Notes: a model not told the origin generated them from the letters alone. A DNA stretch of 64,000 nucleotides from Nitrospirota bacterium (GCA_016212215.1 JACRGV010000009.1:63-64062); one strand, 5' to 3'. Positions 3,108 to 57,050 are shown, counted from the first letter of the stretch. Numbers and translations: made by a program.

Positions 3108-4811
3108 AATAAGTTACTAATCATTGGCCTTGATGGCGGTACATTCGATTTAATAAAGCCCTGGGCAGGGAATGGGAAACTTCCCAATCTTTCGAGATTA
3201 TTAAATGAAGGCGTACATGCAAGGTTGAACAGCACTATCCCTCCGATGACATTTCCTGCATGGAATACATTTATGACAGGAAAGAATCCCGGGAAACATG
3301 GTGTTTATGATTTTACAGAGCGTAAACAGGGGAGCTATGAGGTACAGTTTGTAAATGGAGGGATGAGAAGAAGCAAGACCATCTGGCAGATTATGAATGA
3401 AGCAGGTAAGAATGTCGGTATAATGGCAGTACCTGCAACTTATCCGCCGGAAGAGGTCAAACATTTTATGATCAGCGGGTTTGATACTCCTGGTATGACA
3501 TCCCCTAAAGGCAAAGCCACATCAATGTATCCTCAGGAACTATTTGAGGAGTTAAACAAAGAGGTTGGGGAATATGTTGTTACATCAAATGTTCACGGAG
3601 ATATTGCAAAGGGTAACCTGGATATTGCAGAACAAAAAATCCTTGCAACAATTGAGAGAAAGGCGGCAAATGCCAAATATCTTTATAAGAAATATCAGCC
3701 CAACTGTTTCATGATTGTTTTTGGTGAGACAGATTTAGTGAGCCACAGTTTCTGGCATTTCTATGACCCTCGTTCTCCTCTTCATAATAAAGGTGAAGGT
3801 AGAAAATACAAGGATACTATACTTCATATTTATGAGAAGGTGGATGAAAAGATCGGCGAACTCTTATCCATGTCTTCAAAAGATACCGTGGTTATGATTA
3901 TGTCGGACCATGGATTTGGAGGGAGCGGGAATAAGGCAGTTTATCTTAACAATTGGCTGGCAGAAAATGGATTACTTGCTTTCAGGGATACGTCTTATTC
4001 ATCAATGAAAAATGACCTGCTTCAGGGGGTTAAACGTGCAGGGATAAAGTTCGTTCCGGCCAAATTAAAGGGGATATTGATGCGCAGTAACTCAGTAAAA
4101 TTTGTCAACAAGCTCGAATCCTCTTTAAGATTTTCACAAATAGAATGGTCCGGGACAATGGCATTTTCAGAAGAGACCCCTCATTTTCCTTCAATATGGG
4201 TAAATGTGAGAGGAAGGGACCCTGAAGGGATAGTAGCGCCGGGTGCAGAATATGAGAAAGTAAGAGATGAGATTATTCAGAAACTTTATAGTTTTAAAGA
4301 TCCGTATACATGTCAGCCTGTAGTCAATAAGGCATATCGCAGGGAAGAGGTTTATAAAGGGAATTATACTCAAAAGTCCCCGGATATTGTGATTGATTGG
4401 GCACTGACTGAAGGCTATACCTATCTCAGTGAACAGAGTAAGCCGAACAAGTTCAATGAATCTATAAGAAAACTAAGCCCATCGGAAGTTCATACTGCGA
4501 GGTTCGGGAGCCACCGTCAGCATGGCATCTTTATACTGCACGGAGGTCCGATTAAAAGAAACTTAGAGATTACAAATGCTAATATTGCAGACCTTGCCCC
4601 CACTGCCCTCTATTTACTTGACATCCCTGTGCCTGATGATATGGATGGGGTTGTCCTGAAGGATGCCATCAAAAAGGATTATATAACAGATCATCCATTG
4701 AAAATTGTAAACAACACCGGCGATTCTAACATTGAAAAAGATCCTGCAGGATATTCACAGGATGAAGAAGATGCAGTCAGGGATCGTCTTGCTGATATGG
4801 GTTACATATAA
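3105..4811 (+). CDS. Alkaline-phosphatase-superfamily protein, paralog of 1287-3017
   Basis: Same conserved blocks (LIIGLDGGTFDLI, PPMTFPAWNTFMTGKNPGKHG, MSDHGFG). The ORF track starts at GTG 3084 inside a repeat unit. ATG 3105 (MNKLLIIGLDGG) aligns with the paralog's N-terminus. Confidence 0.65.
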   Translation: MNKLLIIGLDGGTFDLIKPWAGNGKLPNLSRLLNEGVHARLNSTIPPMTFPAWNTFMTGKNPGKHGVYDFTERKQGSYEVQFVNGGMRRSKTIWQIMNEAGKNVGIMAVPATYPPEEVKHFMISGFDTPGMTSPKGKATSMYPQELFEELNKEVGEYVVTSNVHGDIAKGNLDIAEQKILATIERKAANAKYLYKKYQPNCFMIVFGETDLVSHSFWHFYDPRSPLHNKGEGRKYKDTILHIYEKVDEKIGELLSMSSKDTVVMIMSDHGFGGSGNKAVYLNNWLAENGLLAFRDTSYSSMKNDLLQGVKRAGIKFVPAKLKGILMRSNSVKFVNKLESSLRFSQIEWSGTMAFSEETPHFPSIWVNVRGRDPEGIVAPGAEYEKVRDEIIQKLYSFKDPYTCQPVVNKAYRREEVYKGNYTQKSPDIVIDWALTEGYTYLSEQSKPNKFNESIRKLSPSEVHTARFGSHRQHGIFILHGGPIKRNLEITNANIADLAPTALYLLDIPVPDDMDGVVLKDAIKKDYITDHPLKIVNNTGDSNIEKDPAGYSQDEEDAVRDRLADMGYI

Positions 4812-11307: not shown

Positions 11308-12588
11308 ATGAAAAAAGCGGTTTTGATATTTGCAGTAATTTGCTTAATGGGGGCAAGCATACTCTCATGGTTCACCCCCCCGCTGATAAGTCCTGTTAAT
11401 GGCTTTGATATTTCTCTTAGTCCGGTAGTATCTTTAAATACACATTCCTCCGTAATATCATCCTTTAGTATCCTGTTAATTATAATGGCTATAGGTGTTA
11501 TCCTGAGTTTATGGTCATCATACTCGTATATAGTTTTTCATATTTCCATGGGGTGTATTTTCACAACACTGTATTTTATACTCAAGGCGGCCTTCCTTGA
11601 CCATGTTTTTCTTGAGGATGTATTGTATTTACATCAACAGCATCTCAATATGATAAAATTTTCATCTATTCTTCCCGTTAATGTAGGGTTTGAACCCACG
11701 CTTGCCCCGCGTCTTTTGATTGATGGTCTTTTTACAAGAATATATGTTTTATTTTATTTCCTTTCTTATGGATGGTATCTGACCTTCATTACAGGGATTA
11801 TGCTCTTATTTTATTGTTTCCGGAGTGTTAAAAATCCTGATAAAGGTAAAAGGGGTTTAAGGGCAGTTACACGTACAGTAATAATCTGGGGCTTTGCATT
11901 TATAGGAATAGTTGCTTATAGTGTAGCTCCTTATATTATCTCAGAGTATTATGTTATCAATGGTGATAAATATATGGAGGCAGGCAATCCTGTTATAGCA
12001 GAAAAGGCATATAGGAAGATACTTGATAGAAACGATATTTTTGATACGGACAGTGAATTCCAAAATCGTCTCGGTGTTATTGCCTTCTCCTTAGGCAAAA
12101 GAAATAATACTGAGTATCATTTCTACATGGGAAACCTGTATTCAGAACAGAGAAGGTATGATATGGCAGAATTTGAATATAAAAAGGCATTAGAATTGAG
12201 CAGCGGTGATATGCATAAACTTTTGATCCGGTCTCTGGAAGAACTATACAATGTAGCCGGTCTGATAGAGTACACCAGGGGAAACAGCAGTTATGGCGTA
12301 CAAATGTGGGAGAAGGCCCAGCAGTTAAATCCTTCAGGGATTCAGACCTATTATTATTTATCAAAGGCGTACTATGATTCAGGAAATTATCAGAAGGCAA
12401 TGAGCTATGGAGAAAAGTTTCTTTCACTTTCCGGAAACAATATCCTGAATTCCAATATTAATGCAACAATAGGTGATTGTTATTATAAACTGGGAGATCC
12501 TGTCAAGGGACGCACCTATTATGAGAAGGCAAAGGCTCTGGATTTATTCGGGAACTACAGGATATTGAAAAGTCTTGGGGGAACGTAA
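11308..12588 (+). CDS. Polytopic membrane protein with C-terminal TPR repeats
   Basis: Several hydrophobic helices followed by TPR-like 34-aa repeats (YHFYMGNLYSEQRRYDMAEFEYKKALEL ... YYYLSKAYYDSGNYQKAMSYGEKFL). Confidence 0.5.
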   Translation: MKKAVLIFAVICLMGASILSWFTPPLISPVNGFDISLSPVVSLNTHSSVISSFSILLIIMAIGVILSLWSSYSYIVFHISMGCIFTTLYFILKAAFLDHVFLEDVLYLHQQHLNMIKFSSILPVNVGFEPTLAPRLLIDGLFTRIYVLFYFLSYGWYLTFITGIMLLFYCFRSVKNPDKGKRGLRAVTRTVIIWGFAFIGIVAYSVAPYIISEYYVINGDKYMEAGNPVIAEKAYRKILDRNDIFDTDSEFQNRLGVIAFSLGKRNNTEYHFYMGNLYSEQRRYDMAEFEYKKALELSSGDMHKLLIRSLEELYNVAGLIEYTRGNSSYGVQMWEKAQQLNPSGIQTYYYLSKAYYDSGNYQKAMSYGEKFLSLSGNNILNSNINATIGDCYYKLGDPVKGRTYYEKAKALDLFGNYRILKSLGGT

Positions 12589-12599
12589 GTTATTTACGA

Positions 12600-15500
12600 A
12601 TGAGACATCTTAGAACAGCATTATTTATAGTTATAATATTCGGAGTTGTTTCCGGTTATTTTGTTTGGAAGACTTTTTTTGCAATTCCTCCCAGGCTTTA
12701 TCCACAGATATTTAATAAGGCAGTTTGGATTTCATCACCTTCACAACAGCCTGTGGCATATTTCAGAAAGGTATTATTTATACCTGAAAAAATTAAAGAG
12801 GGATGGATTAAGATAAGTGCCCCGGATAAATTTATTCTTTATATCAACGGCCGGGTAGTCGGTAAGGAGACTTTTCCTTCTGTTAATGCTGCAGGTATTT
12901 ACGATATCGGCGGAAGTTTGCAGCACGGCAAAAATGTCATTGCAGTATTCGTATACAGGATGAGTTCCGGCAGTGCGACTGACATTGCAATGGAAGGAAA
13001 TTACACAGATGTTTCAGGCCATCAGCATGCCTTTTCCTCTGATAAATCATGGCGCGTTTCAAATCAGGAATCTTATGCATCTTCCGGTACAAATATATCT
13101 GCCTGGTATGAACAGGATTTTGATGACACTAACTGGAAATATGCTTCAGAGATAAGCCCTGCCCAAGGTTATGATAATGGGTTTCTTACTACCAATCCGG
13201 CAGTTTTCACAAGACCATTCCGTGGTAATATTATATGGCACCCCGATGCCCCTTCCTCTACAATATTATTCAAAAAGGACATCATAATCTCAAGAGAGCC
13301 TCTCAGGGAGGTGTGGGTCCGCATCTACTCGGGTTTGTCTTATACGCTTACAGTAAACGGATTCCGTCTGGATGGAGTTGCATTTATTACTCCCATGGTA
13401 GATATGTTGAAGATTACTCCATTGATACATAATGGTAATAATGTTATTACGCTCGAAGTATCCGGAGAAGGCAATACTCAGGGCATAGCTGTTGATTGTA
13501 TAGTGGAGATGGCAGATGGGAAGATTATAAGTCTTGCATCTGACCGTTCATGGATGGCAGGCAGTTATGCCTATATTTCAGGTGAAGGGAAAAGGGATAT
13601 TATCTGGAAACCTGCTATCACAGTAGTTTCAGGAACAGCATCTATCTCAACTGCCCAGATACAGAAGCGGATACTCGGACCGATAAATCTGCCTCAGGGA
13701 TATTATACATACAGATTTATGAGGATGACAGCGGTTATATTTCTTAACACCGTGTTGTTAATTCTTGCATGGCTTGTACTTTCTGTTATAAGAAAGAAGG
13801 TACTCATCATTGATACATCGCTGATTGAGCATTTACAGATAACTTCATATTTATTTCTCCCATCACTGCTCTTTTTCGGAATAATCTATCTCCTTTCTTT
13901 TGATATTAAGTATGAGCCTTCAGTTATATTTAATCCATGGGCGTTTTATGTATCCGGCGGCATATTTGTTTTTCTTTTTTTATTATCATTTTTGAGGCTA
14001 AAGCATTATGCCTTGAAAGATTCTACAGGTTTTTCTTCTTATTCAGAAATATTACAGAAGAAGTATGCTGTCTTCCTTATACTTCTCATAATACTCTGCC
14101 TCACAGGATTTCTTATAAGACTTCAATCACTCGGGTCAAGGTCTTTCAGTCATGATGAAGTAGCTATGGTGCGATTTGCACAGGGGATTCTTGAACATGG
14201 TTATTCATCTAAGATGCTGGGAGAACTTGAAAAGCCGCTCACTACCTACGAGGCCGTGCCGTTTCCAATAGCCTTTTCTATAAAGATGTTCGGAGACACT
14301 GAAACCGCTGCAAGAGTTCCTGCTGTTATCTTTGGTACAGTAACGATACTCCTTGTGGGTTTGTTTGCAGGGCGTTTATTCGGATATGCTGTAGGGCTGT
14401 ATGCAGCTATTCTTTATACCTTCTCACCGCTTGCCATAGCGTGGGCACAGGATTGTTATTTTCCCCAGCAGGTACAGATGTTCACCCTCCTCACAGTTTA
14501 TCTGTTTTACATCTATCTTGAGAGATATGATAAACAACCACGGTATGCCTATTATATTGCAATTTCATTCCTGCTGACATATCTTAGCTGGGAGGTTTCA
14601 GGCTTTCTCCTGCCTGCCCTCCTGATTGCAGGAATCCTATACAAAGGTAAGGATTTATCCTGGCTGAAAAACAGGCATATATGGCTTGCTGTGGGTATAG
14701 TGGTTGCCGGTGTGTTTCTACAGACAGCCAGAAGGACGTATTATCAAATCCCATATATCGTTGTTGGAATAGGCACCTCTGACGTAACCACCCCTTTACC
14801 GGTTTTTTTGTATCCTATGTATGACCCGTTTTTTTATGTAACAAACTTCCTCCTTCAGGAGAACCACGTTATTTTCACTTTATTGCTCGTTTGTGGAATA
14901 ATATTTCTGAGAAAATATAAAGGACTACGCTACCTCTATGCAATTATTATAATTATACTTCTTGAGCTGGCAAATCTACTGCCTTATTATACTTCACGAT
15001 ACATCTACTTCAGCCAGCCTTTTTTGATAATCATTGCCGCTTGTGTTTCAATTTTAAGTTTTTCATGGATGGCAGAGAAGATTAAAGGACTGCGGCTGCC
15101 AATCCTGTCTCCGGTTATATGGGGTACATGCTCTGTATTTCTGGTTGTTGTCTTTATCTCTTCCAACAGCTTATTTCTGAAACTCTACCGTCTTTCTTAT
15201 GACCCTACTCAGCCGGCTTTTCACACGCGGTCCGGTGTTATTGATTATGACTACAGGGATGTCGGTGCTTTCATAAAAAGTAATTTACAGAAAGGAGATA
15301 TTGTTATTGCAGTTATGTCACATACCATTGAGTACTATTCAGACATTACACCTGATTATTATATACAGAGTTATACAGACAGGCAGGTCTTTTACGACAT
15401 CGGAAGATCAGGAAATCCATCCCCTTATTATCTTGACAGGTATGTTGGACGTCCGGTAATAAGGAGTGTATCTGATCTTAAAAATGTTTTTAACAATAAT

Positions 15501-33059: not shown

Positions 33060-33125
33060 ATTTCCCCTCCCCTTGCGGGAGGGGATTAAGGGGAGGGTTA
33101 GGGTGGGGATGGGGTTATTTTCGGA
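33060..33125. repeat. REP/BIME-like unit
   Basis: 'ttcccctccccttgcgggaggggattaaggggagggttagggtggggatggggtt'. Confidence 0.8.
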
Positions 33126-36742: not shown

Positions 36743-37195
36743 GCCCCCCCTCCCCTTAATCCCCTCCCGCAAGGGGAGGGGAGACATAAGAGAGATTCCT
36801 TACCCTGGGGGGAGCGGGTACATAGAATATGCTCAAGGGAGAGGGTACTAAGTTTATCCCCCCTCCCTTGACGGGAGGGGGTTAGGGGGAGGGTGAGCTA
36901 TGGTGATTTTCGGATGAACTCCCATGAGCGGGGCGATCACAAAGGGCAATGAAAACCCCACCCTCACCCTAACCCTCTCCCTGAGGGAGAGGGGGCTACG
37001 TTGATTCCCTCCCCTTCAAGGGGAGGGGTAGGGTGGGGATGGGGTTGATTTTCGGATGAACTCACATGAACCAGGGTTCACGAATGGCAATGAAAATCAA
37101 CGGGACAAGAATGTCCCGCCTATCCTCATAGATATGGATAGGCGGGGTTTTCTTACCCCGCCGGAAGGATTTTCGAGTGAGTTCAATCAGGAGGA
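36743..37195. repeat. Composite BIME-like cluster (at least 5 units in alternating orientation) + three-hairpin 75-bp module
   Basis: Alternating 'ccctcccc..ggggaggg' and inverse 'caccctcaccctaaccctctccctgagggagaggg' units joined by 'catga(a/g)cNNNgNtcacaaagg.catgaaaa' linker hairpins. Ends with 'cgggacaagaatgtcccgcctatcc…ggataggcggggttttcttaccccgcc'. Confidence 0.8.
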
Positions 37196-40135: not shown

Positions 40136-40560
40136 ATCGTGATTAGTGAATGGTGAATAGTAAAGGCCCCCTCACCCGGAGCCTCTCCCTGAGGGGGAGG
40201 GGGCTACGTTGATTCCCTCCCCTTCAAGGGGAGGGGTAGGGTGGGGATGGGGTTGATTTTCGGATGAACTGTCATGAAACGGAGGTTTCACAAAGGAGGA
40301 TGAAAACCACCCCCCCAATCCCCCCCTTGTTAAGGGGGGGAAAGTTCCTTTGGTGCTCAATGGCCAACGGCAATCCCCCCCTTTGTTCAAGGGGGGGCAT
40401 GGGGGGGTCATTTTCGGATGAACCCACATGAACCAGGGTTCACAAAGGGACATGAAAATCAGCGGGACAAGAAAGTCCCGCCTATCCTCGTAGAGATGGA
40501 TAGGCGGGGTTTTCTTACCCCGCCGGAAGGGATTTTCGGATGAATGCAAATGAGGTTAAA
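40126..40560. repeat. Composite BIME-like cluster incl. 3' 'cagtgaat' module, variant C-tract hairpins and three-hairpin module
   Basis: Starts at leuA's last codons ('aaagcagtgaatcgtgattagtgaatggtgaatag'). Contains 'cccccctt gttaa gggggg' variant hairpins. Ends with the 75-bp module before leuC. Confidence 0.8.
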
Positions 40561-41875: not shown

Positions 41876-42063
41876 ATTTCCCTCCCCCTTGAGGGGGGAG
41901 GGGCAGGGTGGGGGTGAGCTATGGAGATAATCAGATGAACTCCCATGAAACAGGGTTTTACAAAGGGGCATGAAAATCAGCGGGACAAGAATGTCCCGCC
42001 TATCCTCAATTTACACATGGATAGGCGGGGTTTTCTTACCCCGCCGGAGGAATTTTTCGAATG
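41876..42063. repeat. BIME-like cluster + three-hairpin module ending in leuD start codon
   Basis: 'ccctcccccttgaggggggaggggcagggtgggggtgagctatggagataatcagatgaactcccatgaaacagggttttacaaaggggcatgaaaatcagcgggacaag…ttttcgaATG'. Confidence 0.8.
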
Positions 42064-46994: not shown

Positions 46995-47090
46995 ATCCCT
47001 ATCCAGCCAGGGGAGAGGGTGTTAAGTTTATTCCCCCTCCCTTGACGGGAGGGGGTTAGGGGGAGGGTGAGCTATGGATATTTTCACATG
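46995..47090. repeat. BIME-like units upstream of queA
   Basis: 'ccagccaggggagagggtgttaagtttattccccctcccttgacgggagggggttagggggagggtgagctatggatattttcacATG'. Confidence 0.8.
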
Positions 47091-54261: not shown

Positions 54262-54332
54262 GCATAGGCTGAAGGCTGAAGGTAGAAGCAAGAGGCAAGA
54301 AGTTAGAAGTTAGATTGCTATATGATCTAAAA

Positions 54333-54380
54333 TTCCCTCCCCTTCAAGGGGAGGGTTAGGGTGGGGATGGGGTTGTTTTT
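54333..54380. repeat. REP/BIME-like unit upstream of E2
   Basis: 'ccctccccttcaaggggagggttagggtggggatggggttg'. Confidence 0.8.
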
Positions 54381-54382
54381 CA

Positions 54383-55723
54383 ATGCATGAAATAATAATG
54401 CCACAGATGGGTGAAAGCGTTGTTGAAGGGACGATATTAAAGTGGCTTGTTGATGAAGGTCAGCGAGTAGAGAAAGACCATCCCCTTGTTGAAATCAGTA
54501 CAGATAAGATTGACACTGAAATACCGTCACCTTTCTCAGGGATATTAAAAACCATAGTTCACAAGCAAGATGAGACCGTTCCTGTAGGGAAAGTTATTGC
54601 GTTTATTGAGGAATTTAAGGATGATGAAAAAATACCCCCTCCCCTTAATCCCCTCCCGCGAGGGGAGGGGAAATTAATGGTGCAAACGGGGGGAGAGGGT
54701 GCTAAGCTTATCTCACCTCCCTTGAGGGGAGTTCCTTCGTTTGTCCCCTCCCCCTTGACGGGGGAGGGCCAGGGTGGGGGTGAGCAAGAGCAAAGAAATA
54801 TATTTACCCCTCTCGTAAAACGCCTCTCCAGAGAATACGGTATTGACCTGGATGAGATTAATAAGATTACCGGTACAGGTGCAGGGGGCAGGATTACGAA
54901 AGATGATATTCTGGACTATGTTGAGAGAACCCAAAAGATGCCGCTTATTGCTATTGCAAAACCATCTCCTGTTGAGGCAATAAAACCTGAAACAAGAGAA
55001 GAGATTATTCCTTTGAGCAATAAGCGAAGGATCATTGCAGAGAGGATGGTTAAAAGTAAAACAGAGATACCTCATGTCACAACAACATTCGAAGCAGACC
55101 TGACAGGTATCACCCGATTCAGGTCTTTGAATAAAGACATCATATTAAAAGAACATGGTGTTCACCTCACCTTTCTTCCTTTTATTATTAATGCTGTTAC
55201 TTCAACGATCAGGAAGTATCCCATACTTAATGCTATGTGGAATGGAAATGAGATTATAATTAAAAAATATATAAATATCGGGATAGCTGTTTCATTGGAG
55301 GACGGCCTTATAGTCCCTGTTATTAAAGATGCTGATAAAAAGGGACTGGTAGAGCTTGCAAGAGAGAGCCAGGAACTCGCAAAGCGTGCACGAGAGAAGA
55401 ACCTCGGATTGGAAGACCTGCAGGATGGGACGTTTACTATCACTAACTATGGCATTGGAGGGAGTCTGTTTGGGACTCCAATAATTCTGCCGTCACAAAC
55501 AGCAATACTAGGAATCGGTGCAATTATGAAGAGGGCTGTTGTTATAGGTGATGCCATAGCAATCAGGGACATGGTTTATCTAAGCCTCTCATTTGACCAC
55601 CGCGTTATTGACGGTGCACAGGCTGACCGGTTCATGGCAGATGTTAAAGAAGATCTGGAAGGATGGAGAGGTAAGATTGAAAAGGTGTCTGCTGATGCGT
55701 CCGGGTTTGGTGGAGTATGGTAA
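54383..55723 (+). CDS. Dihydrolipoamide acyltransferase (E2) with lipoyl domain, PSBD and catalytic domain
   Basis: Lipoyl-Lys motif 'EISTDKIDTEI', PSBD 'PLVKRLSREYGIDLDEINKITGTGAGGRITKDDI', catalytic 'SLSFDHRVIDGA'. The linker (54636-54785) is encoded by GC-rich repeat units. Confidence 0.8.
   Translation: MHEIIMPQMGESVVEGTILKWLVDEGQRVEKDHPLVEISTDKIDTEIPSPFSGILKTIVHKQDETVPVGKVIAFIEEFKDDEKIPPPLNPLPRGEGKLMVQTGGEGAKLISPPLRGVPSFVPSPLTGEGQGGGEQEQRNIFTPLVKRLSREYGIDLDEINKITGTGAGGRITKDDILDYVERTQKMPLIAIAKPSPVEAIKPETREEIIPLSNKRRIIAERMVKSKTEIPHVTTTFEADLTGITRFRSLNKDIILKEHGVHLTFLPFIINAVTSTIRKYPILNAMWNGNEIIIKKYINIGIAVSLEDGLIVPVIKDADKKGLVELARESQELAKRAREKNLGLEDLQDGTFTITNYGIGGSLFGTPIILPSQTAILGIGAIMKRAVVIGDAIAIRDMVYLSLSFDHRVIDGAQADRFMADVKEDLEGWRGKIEKVSADASGFGGVW
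54636..54785. repeat. BIME-like units located INSIDE the E2 coding sequence (lipoyl-PSBD linker), in frame
   Basis: 'ccccctccccttaatcccctcccgcgaggggaggggaaa…ggggggagagggtgctaagc…cctcccttgaggggag…cccctcccccttgacgggggagggccagggtgggggtgagc', translated as PPPLNPLPRGEGK…GGEGAKLISPPLRGVPSFVPSPLTGEGQGGGE. Confidence 0.8.
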
Positions 55724-56342: not shown

Positions 56343-56557
56343 TATACAAAAAGGAGGATAGTGCCATGAAAAAGAAGCTAATAGTATTATCCCTGTTACT
56401 TTCAGGGATTACAGGTAGTTTTTTCATACCGCAAAAAGGCTATTCACAGACGGCCCCGGAGGCATCTTCAGTTTCTTAAGAAACAATTTCAAGGGATGCA
56501 GATGTTAATACAGAACTGCCGGCATCGGCAATCTTTTCTACAGGAGAGATTGAGGCT

Positions 56558-57019
56558 GTGCGTCAGCAATGGCTTGACCAGCGGGAGTTGATAGATTCAA
56601 TGGTTGATAATAGTCCGGCAAGTCCTGCAGGTCTTCCATTAAAGAAAGGCAGGGAGGTCAACCTGATTGACCCTGCTATAATGGAAATACCAAGTACGAT
56701 TACTATAAGCCGAAATAACAAAAATACCATTGCCAATGGTGCAGGAGGAAGTGTTCTTGCTGAACCTGCTGCTGCAAGCGAAGGGGCAGAAGTTTTTTAT
56801 ACAGGAAATAATTATGCATCATATTCTACAAATGGCGGCGCTATATGGGTTAATGTTCCTATACCGGCAGGTCCTGCCGATGCCTCGCTCCCATGCTGTG
56901 ATAATGATGTAATCCATGACAAAGGGCAGCAAGAAGTTAGAAGCAAGAAGTTAGAAGTAAAGATTGGCTGCCACTTCCCTATTTTTAGCTTTCCCCCCTC
57001 CATTGACGGGAGGGGTTAG
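56558..57019 (+). CDS. Hypothetical protein (possible 3' part of a disrupted secreted-protein gene beginning at 56366)
   Basis: The track ORF starts at GTG. It is in the same frame as the signal-peptide ORF 56366-56477, separated by a single TAA. The 3' end runs into a heptamer/GC-hairpin repeat. Confidence 0.3.
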   Translation: MRQQWLDQRELIDSMVDNSPASPAGLPLKKGREVNLIDPAIMEIPSTITISRNNKNTIANGAGGSVLAEPAAASEGAEVFYTGNNYASYSTNGGAIWVNVPIPAGPADASLPCCDNDVIHDKGQQEVRSKKLEVKIGCHFPIFSFPPSIDGRG

Positions 57020-57050
57020 GGGGAGGGTGAGCTATGGGTATTTCCGAGTG
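56990..57050. repeat. REP/BIME-like unit with GTG variant of the terminal start module
   Basis: 'ccccctccattgacgggaggggttagggggagggtgagctatgggtatttccgaGTGaaa'. Confidence 0.75.

What the first reader, a model, noticed from the sequence alone, without database searches (positions are those of the whole stretch)
54636..54785. Mosaic repeat units inserted in frame in the E2 lipoyl-PSBD linker and translated
The E2 gene is continuous. But 150 bp of its linker is composed of two or three of the same GC hairpin units found in intergenic regions. They encode PPPLNPLPRGEGKLMVQTGGEGAKLISPPLRGVPSFVPSPLTGEGQGGGEQEQ, a Pro/Gly-rich stretch that functions as an unusually long (~60 aa) flexible linker. This is a case of a non-coding repeat family being exapted as coding sequence, or of a repeat insertion tolerated only where it creates linker. 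The frame is preserved across it.
Basis: seen in the sequence. Interest (0 to 1): 0.65.

Follow-up and report, generated by a model that had tools for sequence, protein, structure and literature searches.

The report
Hairpin repeat translated as enzyme linker
A 150-base palindromic "junk" repeat that normally sits between genes lies in frame inside a metabolic enzyme gene and now encodes most of the flexible tether between two of its domains; this kind of event is known from Rickettsia but is seen here in a different phylum, with a different repeat family, and with related genomes each carrying a different repeat at the same spot.

Summary
Window 54635-54785 lies inside an intact 2-oxoacid dehydrogenase E2 gene (54383-55723) and is one copy of a ~150-nt composite GC-hairpin repeat. 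Its parts match intergenic copies at 97%, 88% and 95%, and the whole aligns end to end with the intergenic element at 36746-36900 (81%). Only the E2 frame is stop-free on the sense strand. The insert encodes residues 85-135 of the ~66-residue lipoyl-PSBD linker, which AlphaFold2 predicts as disordered. Typical homologues have unrelated linkers with no repeat signature that are about 25 residues shorter. The three nearest relatives each carry a repeat at the same site: the same element collapsed by 99 nt, an unrelated palindrome, and a C8/G7 hairpin unit. The native linker sequence has therefore been replaced, not merely extended. The same repeat types also sit in E2/E3 linkers of Burkholderiales and Brocadiia. 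The window's exact 38-nt unit is found in frame in UvrB, DNA polymerase I and an MmeI-type enzyme in other metagenome contigs. This is the Rickettsia-palindromic-element phenomenon with a different repeat family and host. Translation and function are inferred, not shown. In passing: the unit is very widespread and tightly brackets DUF559 endonuclease genes.

The parts
54383..55723 (+). 2-oxoacid dehydrogenase E2 (dihydrolipoamide acyltransferase) gene, 446 aa, intact
   Evidence: ORF. Pfam hits Biotin_lipoyl, E3_binding and 2-oxoacid_dh. 100% match to an NCBI 'MAG: Nitrospirae bacterium' E2. Lipoyl-Lys K42 and catalytic H406/D410 are invariant in alignment A2.
54386..54607 (+). lipoyl domain (aa 2-75)
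   Evidence: Pfam PF00364, E 8e-21. AF2 pLDDT 81-90.
54635..54785 (+). in-frame composite GC-hairpin repeat element (aa 85-135 of E2), the subject of the finding
   Evidence: Collinear with the intergenic composite 36746-36900: 81% identity, score 130 against shuffles -26 +/- 11. The E2 frame is the only sense frame open. RNA fold -87 kcal/mol, z -3.5. pLDDT below 50 across aa 80-139.
54635..54671 (+). left module: C-rich tail CCCCCTCCCC, TTAAT, then hairpin CCCCTCCC-GCGA-GGGGAGGGG (read as PPPLNPLPRGEG)
   Evidence: 97% identical to 36746-36782; the overlapping stretch 54637-54674 is 97% identical to 33060-33097 on the minus strand. Conserved in the L001 ortholog.
54686..54731 (+). degenerate middle unit (half hairpin GGGGGGAGAGGG, spacer TGCTAAGCTTAT, weak hairpin CACCTCCC-TTGA-GGGGAG)
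   Evidence: 54691-54731 is 88% identical to 36837-36877, and 54690-54731 is 86% identical to 47010-47051. It lies within the 99 nt that are absent from L001.
54744..54785 (+). right module: hairpin CCCTCCCCC-TTGAC-GGGGGAGGG plus G-rich tail CCAGGGTGGGGGTGAGC (read as PSPLTGEGQGGGE)
   Evidence: 54746-54785 is 95% identical to intergenic 41880-41919. The G-tail is conserved in L001. Most intergenic copies have TTAGGG here, which would be TAG in this frame; the E2 copy has CCAGGG.
54806..54913 (+). peripheral subunit-binding domain (aa 142-177)
   Evidence: Pfam PF02817, E 3.6e-14.
54995..55663 (+). catalytic acyltransferase domain (aa 205-427)
   Evidence: Pfam PF00198, E 3.5e-81.
36746..36900 (+). 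intergenic sister copy of the whole composite element (between ilvC-like and psd-like genes)
   Evidence: Folds as one long hairpin, z -4.2. None of its six frames is open. Neighbouring genes identified.
54335..54372 (+). canonical 38-nt unit CCCTCCCCTTCAAGGGGAGGGTTAGGGTGGGGATGGGG in the E1beta-E2 spacer
   Evidence: This spacer is only a few nt long and repeat-free in ortholog L001.
41880..41919 (+). intergenic unit closest to the right module of the E2 insert
   Evidence: 95% of 40 nt.

Best explanation
Window 54635-54785 is one copy of a ~150-nt composite palindromic repeat. It consists of two GC hairpins with an outward C-rich tail on the left and a G-rich tail on the right, around a degenerate middle unit. 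It belongs to a dispersed family that otherwise fills intergenic spacers in this Nitrospirota genome. An ancestor of this clade acquired the element inside the DNA encoding the disordered tether between the lipoyl domain and the E1/E3-binding domain of E2. A copy can survive there only if it adds a multiple of three bases and is read in a stop-free frame. This copy meets both conditions, and the resulting Pro/Gly/Glu-rich peptide (PPPLNPLPRGEG...GEGQGGGEQ) is compatible with a linker whose requirements are length and flexibility (the linker's role is established knowledge of 2-oxoacid dehydrogenase complexes). The native linker sequence was then lost, so the repeat-derived 51 residues now supply most of the ~66-residue swinging-arm tether. 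The site keeps turning over. One sister lineage collapsed the element by a 99-nt deletion between the direct GGGGAGGG repeats of the two hairpins. Another replaced it with an unrelated palindromic repeat. Shown here: the repeat identity, the frame, the domain context, the ortholog states and the predicted disorder. Inferred: that the insert is translated, that it serves as the tether, the order of events, and the mobilisation mechanism, which is unknown; a DUF559 endonuclease partner is only a lead.
For: Repeat identity to intergenic copies. The intact gene has all three domains and invariant catalytic and lipoyl residues. Only the E2 frame is open on the sense strand, whereas the intergenic sister copy is closed in all six frames. 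AF2 gives pLDDT below 50 and no secondary structure for residues 80-139, with folded flanks. Outside the linker, P0002 and P0003 are 93% identical to each other and 86-88% identical to the window, so the window is the outgroup. The element has identical left and right junctions in the window and in P0002, which makes it ancestral and makes the P0003 state a replacement. The non-repeat linker residues in the window number about 15, while most homologues have 34-45 aa of unrelated linker with no repeat signature. The phenomenon is general. GC-hairpin units sit in E2 and E3 linkers of Caenimonas, Ramlibacter and Piscinibacter, and in the second linker of a Brocadiia E2. The exact 38-nt unit lies in frame in UvrB, Pol I and an MmeI-type enzyme, with Pfam domains on both sides. 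In-frame palindromic repeats are an established phenomenon (RPEs; PMC10969869, PMC3184786).
Against: There is no direct evidence of translation or of enzyme activity. The direction of the 99-nt difference from P0002 (deletion there, or nested gain here) is not settled. At two nearby syntenic spacers the window has repeat copies that L001 lacks, which fits recent gain in the window lineage. Independent insertion of the same element at the same site in the window and P0002 lineages cannot be excluded if insertion is site-specific. Only three close relatives exist in the databases searched, all on short contigs. The unit count could be affected by short-read assembly of repeats.
Confidence: 0.82

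Rival explanations
1. Neutral passenger: the repeat is merely tolerated extra length. The linker function is carried by the remaining native residues and the insert contributes nothing.
For: The window's linker is about 25 aa longer than usual. The genome shows recent repeat spread in neighbouring spacers. Turnover at the site suggests weak constraint on sequence.
Against: Only about 15 non-repeat residues remain between the lipoyl domain and the PSBD. In P0002 the 18-20 repeat-derived residues are essentially the whole linker. Without them the lipoyl domain would be joined almost directly to the PSBD.
Confidence: 0.2
2. Selected nucleic-acid element: the hairpins, or the G-rich tract with four or more G-runs on the sense strand, are kept because they act on the mRNA or DNA, for example as a translational pause after the lipoyl domain, an RNase barrier or a recombination site. 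The peptide would then be a by-product.
For: The insert folds better than shuffles (z -3.5). The hairpin arms are retained in P0002. In Burkholderiales the hairpin persists at the DNA level across genera.
Against: Sister lineages have unrelated sequences at the site and most homologues have none. No covariation test was possible with two sequences. Rfam finds no family in the window.
Confidence: 0.1
3. Chance resemblance: an ordinary Pro/Gly-rich linker that only looks like the repeats because of its composition.
For: E2 linkers are commonly Pro/Ala-rich (own knowledge). Low-complexity sequence inflates short matches.
Against: The matches are 95-97% identical over 37-40 nt, and the full-length collinear alignment scores far above shuffles. 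Inverted-repeat symmetry has no protein-level reason. The homologues' linkers are unrelated in sequence.
Confidence: 0.02
4. Assembly artefact: repeat-induced chimera or misjoin in a short-read MAG placed intergenic repeat sequence inside the gene.
For: The source is a metagenome-assembled genome. Repeats of this family often end contigs in other assemblies.
Against: The frame is preserved and stop-free. Both junctions are reproduced in an independent ENA assembly (L001). The flanking E2 sequence is collinear with orthologs.
Confidence: 0.03
5. Not translated: the element is removed or bypassed, by RNA excision or translational hopping, so the mature protein has a short linker.
For: None specific. 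Bypass elements exist in other systems (own knowledge).
Against: The open frame and multiple-of-three length are exactly what translation requires and are unnecessary if the element were removed. The same holds for in-frame copies in UvrB, Pol I and MmeI.
Confidence: 0.03

Closest known systems
Rickettsia palindromic elements (RPEs; Ogata et al. 2000, as summarised in PMC10969869 and PMC3184786)
   Same: Both are dispersed palindromic repeats of ~100-150 bp found in intergenic DNA and in frame inside unrelated housekeeping genes. Both encode an extra peptide placed where it does not disrupt the fold.
   Different: The host phylum is different (Nitrospirota) and the sequence family appears unrelated: it is built from ~40-nt GC hairpin modules. 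The peptide is a disordered Pro/Gly linker. The insert replaces a native linker and is itself replaced by other repeat families in sister lineages.
REP/BIME elements mobilised by RAYT (Y1) transposases (PMC3333891, PMC3733652)
   Same: Both are short GC-rich imperfect palindromes of 20-40 nt. Both are clustered in mosaics in intergenic spacers between co-directional genes, in either orientation.
   Different: There is no GTAG or CGTC head: the unit starts TT|CCCTCCCC. No RAYT gene was seen. The exact 38-nt unit occurs on contigs of 40-67% GC, whereas REPs are typically species-specific. REPs are by definition extragenic.
Bacterial MITEs with in-frame fusions (ERIC, BOX, Correia-type; PMC10969869, PMC3184786, PMC2229807)
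   Same: Both are non-autonomous small repeats with terminal inverted symmetry that can carry open frames and fuse to host ORFs.
   Different: No target-site duplication or parent IS was identified here. The only candidate partner seen is a DUF559 endonuclease cassette in other metagenome contigs, which is not a known transposase.
Canonical Ala/Pro-rich inter-domain linkers of 2-oxoacid dehydrogenase E2 chains (established biochemistry; own knowledge)
   Same: Same position (lipoyl to PSBD), a length within the range seen in the family, predicted disorder, and a sequence rich in Pro and small or charged residues.
   Different: The sequence comes from a mobile or repetitive DNA element, not from gradual divergence. 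Its DNA is an inverted repeat shared with intergenic copies.

Membership tests
In-frame palindromic repeat insertion (RPE-type phenomenon) | Belongs to a dispersed repeat family that also has intergenic copies | tested here: met
   97%, 88% and 95% unit matches, and 81% full-length identity to 36746-36900.
In-frame palindromic repeat insertion (RPE-type phenomenon) | Palindromic, able to form a hairpin | tested here: met
   Inverted repeats I20 and I22 with 9-nt perfect arms. Fold z -3.5.
In-frame palindromic repeat insertion (RPE-type phenomenon) | Lies inside an otherwise intact ORF, preserves the frame, has no stop | tested here: met
In-frame palindromic repeat insertion (RPE-type phenomenon) | Orthologs exist that lack the insert | tested here: met
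   Most of the 120 homologues have unrelated linkers with no repeat signature. The three nearest have a collapsed copy or other repeat families.
In-frame palindromic repeat insertion (RPE-type phenomenon) | Insert sits where it does not disturb the fold | tested here: met
   It lies between Pfam domains and residues 80-139 are predicted disordered.
Rickettsia RPE sequence families (RPE-1 to RPE-10) | Sequence homology to an RPE consensus | not tested
   No RPE sequences were available in the tools. The GC-hairpin sequence and the non-rickettsial host make homology unlikely (inference).
REP/BIME | Conserved GTAG or CGTC tetranucleotide head next to the palindrome | tested here: not met
   Across 117 instances of the unit, only TT before and T after are conserved.
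REP/BIME | Cognate RAYT (Y1 transposase) gene in the genome | not testable with these tools
   Only 64 kb of the genome is available. The ten ORFs next to repeat clusters that were scanned are housekeeping genes.
MITE | Terminal inverted repeats | tested here: met
   The composite folds as one long hairpin with the left module pairing to the right module.
MITE | Target-site duplication and a parent IS with matching ends | tested here: inconclusive
   No duplication is evident at the E2 junctions or in the unit flanks. DUF559 ORFs bracketed by inverted units are a candidate parent, but in other organisms.
2-oxoacid dehydrogenase E2 (host gene) | Lipoyl domain with the lipoyl-lysine, PSBD, and catalytic domain with the DHRxxDG motif | tested here: met
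   (three Pfam domains). (K42, H406 and D410 invariant). The operon context E1alpha, E1beta, E2, LipB appears and in the called genes of orthologous contigs.

The most novel reading that the evidence does not exclude
The E2 insert may be one visible case of a larger, undescribed process. In this reading, a cross-phylum superfamily of ~40-nt GC hairpin modules repeatedly lands in, nests in and overwrites the same permissive disordered sites of housekeeping proteins, so that such linkers and loops are largely built from and renewed by mobile hairpins. The evidence for breadth is that the window's exact 38-nt unit occurs on >=120 metagenome stretches of 40-67% GC. The sites seen so far are E2/E3 lipoyl linkers in Nitrospirota, Brocadiia and Burkholderiales, and the IEVRP-QVDDL loop of UvrB in Geobacterales-like homologues. 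The mobilising partner may be small DUF559 endonuclease cassettes that the units bracket as inverted ends.
Probability: 0.35. Interest if true: 0.8.

Novelty: new member of a known kind. Interest (0 to 1): 0.58.

Why it matters
The case shows, with an ortholog series, how non-coding selfish repeats become protein sequence. They are retained where a protein needs only a flexible spacer, they can take over that role completely, and they can be swapped for other repeats. That gives a concrete, testable route for the rapid sequence turnover of inter-domain linkers. It also bears on annotation: Pro/Gly-rich 'low-complexity' stretches such as PxPxxGEG in environmental proteins may be repeat footprints. 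The wide distribution of the exact unit and its tight association with DUF559 genes would, if confirmed, point to an uncharacterised mobile element.

Tried and rejected
(1) I searched the 54-aa linker peptide against the 5.8-billion protein set to find other proteins with the same stretch. It returned only 2 weak candidates (E above 1) and not even the source protein, so the result is uninformative, probably because of low complexity.

(2) The genome-contig scan with E2 did not find the source genome or any relative above 55% identity, so it could not polarise the insertion history. It did reveal the Burkholderiales cases.

(3) An Rfam gathering scan of the whole window found no family.

(4) Megablast of an intergenic composite against PLSDB plasmids gave no match, possibly because of the low-complexity filter.

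(5) A literature search for the unit's sequence or its peptide signatures gave 0 papers. The papers mentioning DUF559 gave no sign, from their titles and abstract openings, of a repeat or mobile-element link.

(6) A weak hairpin in the linker of Nitrospirota MAG196 E2 (L031) was judged possibly chance and was not counted.

(7) The L002-type palindrome is absent from the window.

(8) I considered that the TTAGGG to CCAGGG difference in the right module was a post-insertion repair of a stop codon. An intergenic copy at 41880 already has GCAGGG, so it may simply be a subfamily variant.

Full report
**Observation.** The ORF at 54383..55723 (+) is continuous and encodes a 446-aa protein with a lipoyl domain (aa 2-75), an E3-binding/PSBD domain (142-177) and the 2-oxoacid dehydrogenase acyltransferase domain (205-427). 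It is 100% identical to an NCBI entry named 'MAG: Nitrospirae bacterium 2-oxo acid dehydrogenase subunit E2', on a 67.7-kb contig.

**The repeat family is real.** The core CCCTCCCC-N3-12-GGGGAGGG occurs 9 times in the window and never in 100 shuffles. A looser pattern finds 28 units. By position against the ORF list, the 25 units between 33 and 57 kb lie between co-directional ORFs, apart from the two in E2. The ORFs scanned there are housekeeping genes: ilvB/N/C-, psd-, leuC/D-, asd- and aminotransferase-like.

**Identity of the insert.** blastn-short of the linker against the rest of the window gives three strong matches.
- 54635-54671 matches 36746-36782 (97% of 37 nt), and 54637-54674 matches 33060-33097 on the minus strand (97% of 38 nt).
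- 54691-54731 matches 36837-36877 (88% of 41 nt).
- 54746-54785 matches 41880-41919 (95% of 40 nt).

More tellingly, the whole 151 nt aligns end to end with the intergenic composite at 36746-36900. There are 115 identities in 142 ungapped columns, and the score is 130 against -26 +/- 11 for shuffles. The insert is therefore one copy of a ~150-nt composite element, with three parts:
- a left hairpin preceded by a C-rich tail;
- a degenerate middle unit;
- a right hairpin followed by a G-rich tail.

The intergenic copy folds as one long hairpin (z -4.2) and the E2 copy also folds better than shuffles (z -3.5). On the sense strand only the E2 frame is free of stops; the other two sense frames have three each. 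The intergenic sister copy is closed in all six frames. Most intergenic copies have TTAGGG in the right module, which would read TAG in this frame. The E2 copy has CCAGGG, and one intergenic copy (41880) has GCAGGG, so this may be a subfamily variant and not necessarily a repair.

**Protein context.** AlphaFold2 on a 17-sequence alignment gives a confident lipoyl domain (pLDDT 81-90) and catalytic domain. Residues 80-139 have pLDDT below 50 and no secondary structure, which coincides with the insert at aa 85-135. The lipoyl lysine (K42) and the catalytic His/Asp (H406, D410) are invariant across the alignment. Nothing suggests a pseudogene.

**Orthologs.** Among the 120 best homologues, the lipoyl-PSBD linker measured with one common yardstick is mostly 34-45 aa of Glu/Lys/Pro/Ala/Val-rich sequence unrelated to the insert. 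The window's linker measures 64 aa. The three closest relatives are the informative ones.
- **P0002** (ENA contig L001) has ...EEEK-TPPPLNPLPPGEGQGGGEQ-KIYTPLV. Its DNA, ACACCCCCTCCCCTTAATCCCCTTCCGCCAGGGGAGGGGCAGGGTGGGGGTGAGCAA, has the same left and right junctions as the window but lacks the inner 99 nt. In the window those 99 nt are bracketed by direct GGGGAGGG repeats.
- **P0003** (Logan contig L002) has a completely different linker, GIILRQAQDDNKQAQDDNKDVMVSLSNHDE. It is encoded by another palindrome (TTCGACAAGCTCA ... TGAGCTTGTCGAA) with a 21-nt tandem duplication, inserted between the same flanks.
- **P0004** (L083) has PPPPLEKGGMGGF..., encoded by a C8/G7 hairpin unit like the window's intergenic units at 40320/40375, including the TTTCGGAYGAAC tail.

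Outside the linker, P0002 and P0003 are 93% identical to each other and 86-88% identical to the window. The window is therefore the outgroup, and the GC element shared by the window and P0002 is most simply ancestral, with the P0003 state a later replacement.

In all three, almost nothing is left of the ~30 native residues seen in P0005-P0008; compare LKGDAA-IAATVPTPVIKPEKAATEKLTEEVPPEGIVT-KRIY. The repeat-derived peptide is therefore not an add-on. It is the linker.

**Which way did the 99 nt change?** I favour collapse in P0002 by deletion between the two hairpins. A single hairpin carrying both a C-tail and a G-tail is not a form seen among the intergenic copies. Two-hairpin composites with outward tails are the common form here and elsewhere. 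A nested gain in the window lineage is not excluded. The window has repeat copies in the E1beta-E2 spacer and downstream of lipB that L001 and L002 lack.

**Generality.** A 14-mer screen and follow-up over E2 loci from species-representative genomes gave further cases.
- The two inter-domain linkers of PDH E2 and the lipoyl linker of E3 in Caenimonas sp. SL110 each read SPSPQPSP..GEG/GRG...SPSP..GEGRGEG. They are encoded by a pair of inverted GC hairpin units.
- Ramlibacter, Piscinibacter and a Pseudomonadota MAG share the first unit.
- The Piscinibacter E2 also has the LSLSK/FDRLR-type palindrome in its other linker. These are the same two repeat types seen in the Nitrospirota trio.
- A Brocadiia E2 (L084) has CCCCCCTCACCCCAACCCTCTCCCACGAGGGGAGAGGG in the PSBD-catalytic linker, read as PSPQPSPTRGEG.

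By peptide signature, 7 of the 120 closest homologues and 5 of 80 species representatives carry such stretches.

**The family beyond this genome.** The contigs have 40-67% GC. Across 117 instances only TT before and T after the unit are conserved, so its borders are sharp.

Read on the other strand as PHPHPNPPLEGEG, the unit lies in frame in three kinds of enzyme:
- a UvrB, between UvrB_inter and Helicase_C;
- two related DNA polymerase I genes, where it splits the 3'-5' exonuclease domain hit;
- an MmeI-type enzyme, where it splits the methyltransferase domain hit.

That UvrB is Geobacterales-like (88% to Pelobacter propionicus). In the 113 of its 120 listed homologues where it could be measured, the IEVRP-QVDDL loop ranges from 6 to 47 aa. 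Most long versions carry peptides typical of several hairpin families. This looks like a second site with the same occupancy and turnover, though it is judged from peptides alone apart from L123.

**Comparison with what is known.** In-frame insertion of dispersed palindromic repeats into housekeeping genes is established for Rickettsia palindromic elements, and occasional in-frame fusions are known for ERIC, BOX and other small repeats (PMC10969869, PMC3184786, PMC2229807). The present case works like an RPE. I did not test sequence membership in the RPE families, and the GC-hairpin sequence and non-rickettsial host make it unlikely.

It resembles REP/BIME in size and mosaic clustering but lacks the GTAG/CGTC head (PMC3733652). 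It resembles a MITE in its terminal inverted symmetry, but no target duplication or parent IS was found.

No paper in the library holds the unit's sequence, and Rfam has no matching family in the window. I therefore file the finding as a new member of a known kind. What goes beyond the RPE picture is complete take-over of a functional linker and serial replacement by different families at one site.

**Limits.**
- Translation and function are inferred.
- The close relatives are few and sit on short contigs.
- The taxonomic breadth of the unit rests on contig GC content, sample diversity and one protein-based placement.
- The mobilisation mechanism is unknown.

Noticed in passing
Its borders are sharp (only TT before and T after are conserved) and the flanks are unrelated. 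That is far wider and more exact than expected for a species-specific REP-like repeat.
   Followed up: partly
L187 (inverted exact units at 3654-3691 and 4077-4114 bracketing the ORF), L157, L150, L125, L131, L094, L135, L167, L194, L183: All 10 DUF559 (PF04480) ORFs found in 871 kb of unit-containing loci lie within about 0-110 nt of the exact unit. Typically the unit sits 4-16 nt upstream in the same orientation and an inverted unit or hairpin follows just downstream, giving a ~450-bp cassette with inverted ends. This is a possible autonomous partner of the hairpin family. There is none in the window, and no paper was found on it.
   Followed up: partly
L123:3472-5610 (UvrB) and homologues P0123-P0242: In Geobacterales-like UvrB homologues the loop between IEVRP and QVDDL varies from 6 to 47 aa. 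Most long versions carry peptides typical of several different hairpin repeat families, including in Pelobacter propionicus DSM 2379. This looks like a second hot spot of in-frame repeat occupancy and turnover.
   Followed up: partly
L200:747-3656 (-), L202:2-2380 (+), L121:2061-4919 (+): The same unit, within two-hairpin composites, lies in frame in DNA polymerase I (splitting the 3'-5' exonuclease Pfam hit) and in an MmeI-type restriction-modification enzyme (splitting the methyltransferase hit).
   Followed up: partly
L053:9608-11332 and 11947-13803 (Caenimonas sp. SL110); L062, L073, L075, L077: Every lipoyl-domain linker of PDH E2 and of the lipoyl-bearing E3 reads SPSPQPSP..GEG ... SPSP..GEGRGEG, encoded by a pair of inverted GC hairpins. 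The first unit is shared across Burkholderiales genera. Within these ~20-kb loci nearly all hairpins of this type lie in those linkers, with none seen in intergenic DNA. The Piscinibacter E2 also carries an LSLSK/FDRLR-type palindrome in its first linker.
   Followed up: partly
L084:10620-10660 and L084:15264-15287: A Brocadiia E2 has a GC hairpin unit in its second (PSBD-catalytic) linker, read as PSPQPSPTRGEG and shared by P0051, P0060 and P0104. Another unit lies inside a called queA-like gene (PF02547) on the same contig.
   Followed up: no
window 56366-57030: The gene after lipB is a remnant. It matches only the first 199 aa of a 550-aa protein of the orthologous contig L002 (82% identity), contains an in-frame TAA, and breaks off at short AGAAGTTAGAAG-type repeats followed by a GC hairpin unit (56994-57030). 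This is a destructive repeat-associated event next to the tolerated one in E2.
   Followed up: partly
window 54262-54382, compared with L001:655-672 and L002:1-56: The E1beta-E2 spacer is in a different state in each of the three related genomes. It is 121 nt with GAAGG/AGAAG short repeats plus a canonical hairpin unit in the window, only a few nt in L001, and holds a different hairpin (CGTCGGGGATGAACCCCGACG, which has a CGTC head) in L002.
   Followed up: no
window 54761-54785 and the G-rich tails of the intergenic units: The G-rich tails (for example GGGGAGGGCCAGGGTGGGGGTG and GGGGAGGGTTAGGGTGGGGATGGGG) contain four or more G-runs, so they fit the usual G-quadruplex motif on the sense strand, competing with the hairpin. 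Not tested.
   Followed up: no
P0104 (L084:10001-11437), first linker: This Brocadiia E2 has an 80-aa first linker made by a tandem duplication of a ~40-aa segment (…PAPKPPEAVKEAIPK[R/K]EI.REEVEAVAEKRY, twice). This is a different route to a long linker.
   Followed up: no
window 1-33000 compared with 33000-57100: 27 of the 28 hairpin units detected lie in the 33-57 kb part of the window; only one (3050) lies in the first 33 kb. The cause (gene lengths, operon structure or local spread) was not examined.
   Followed up: no
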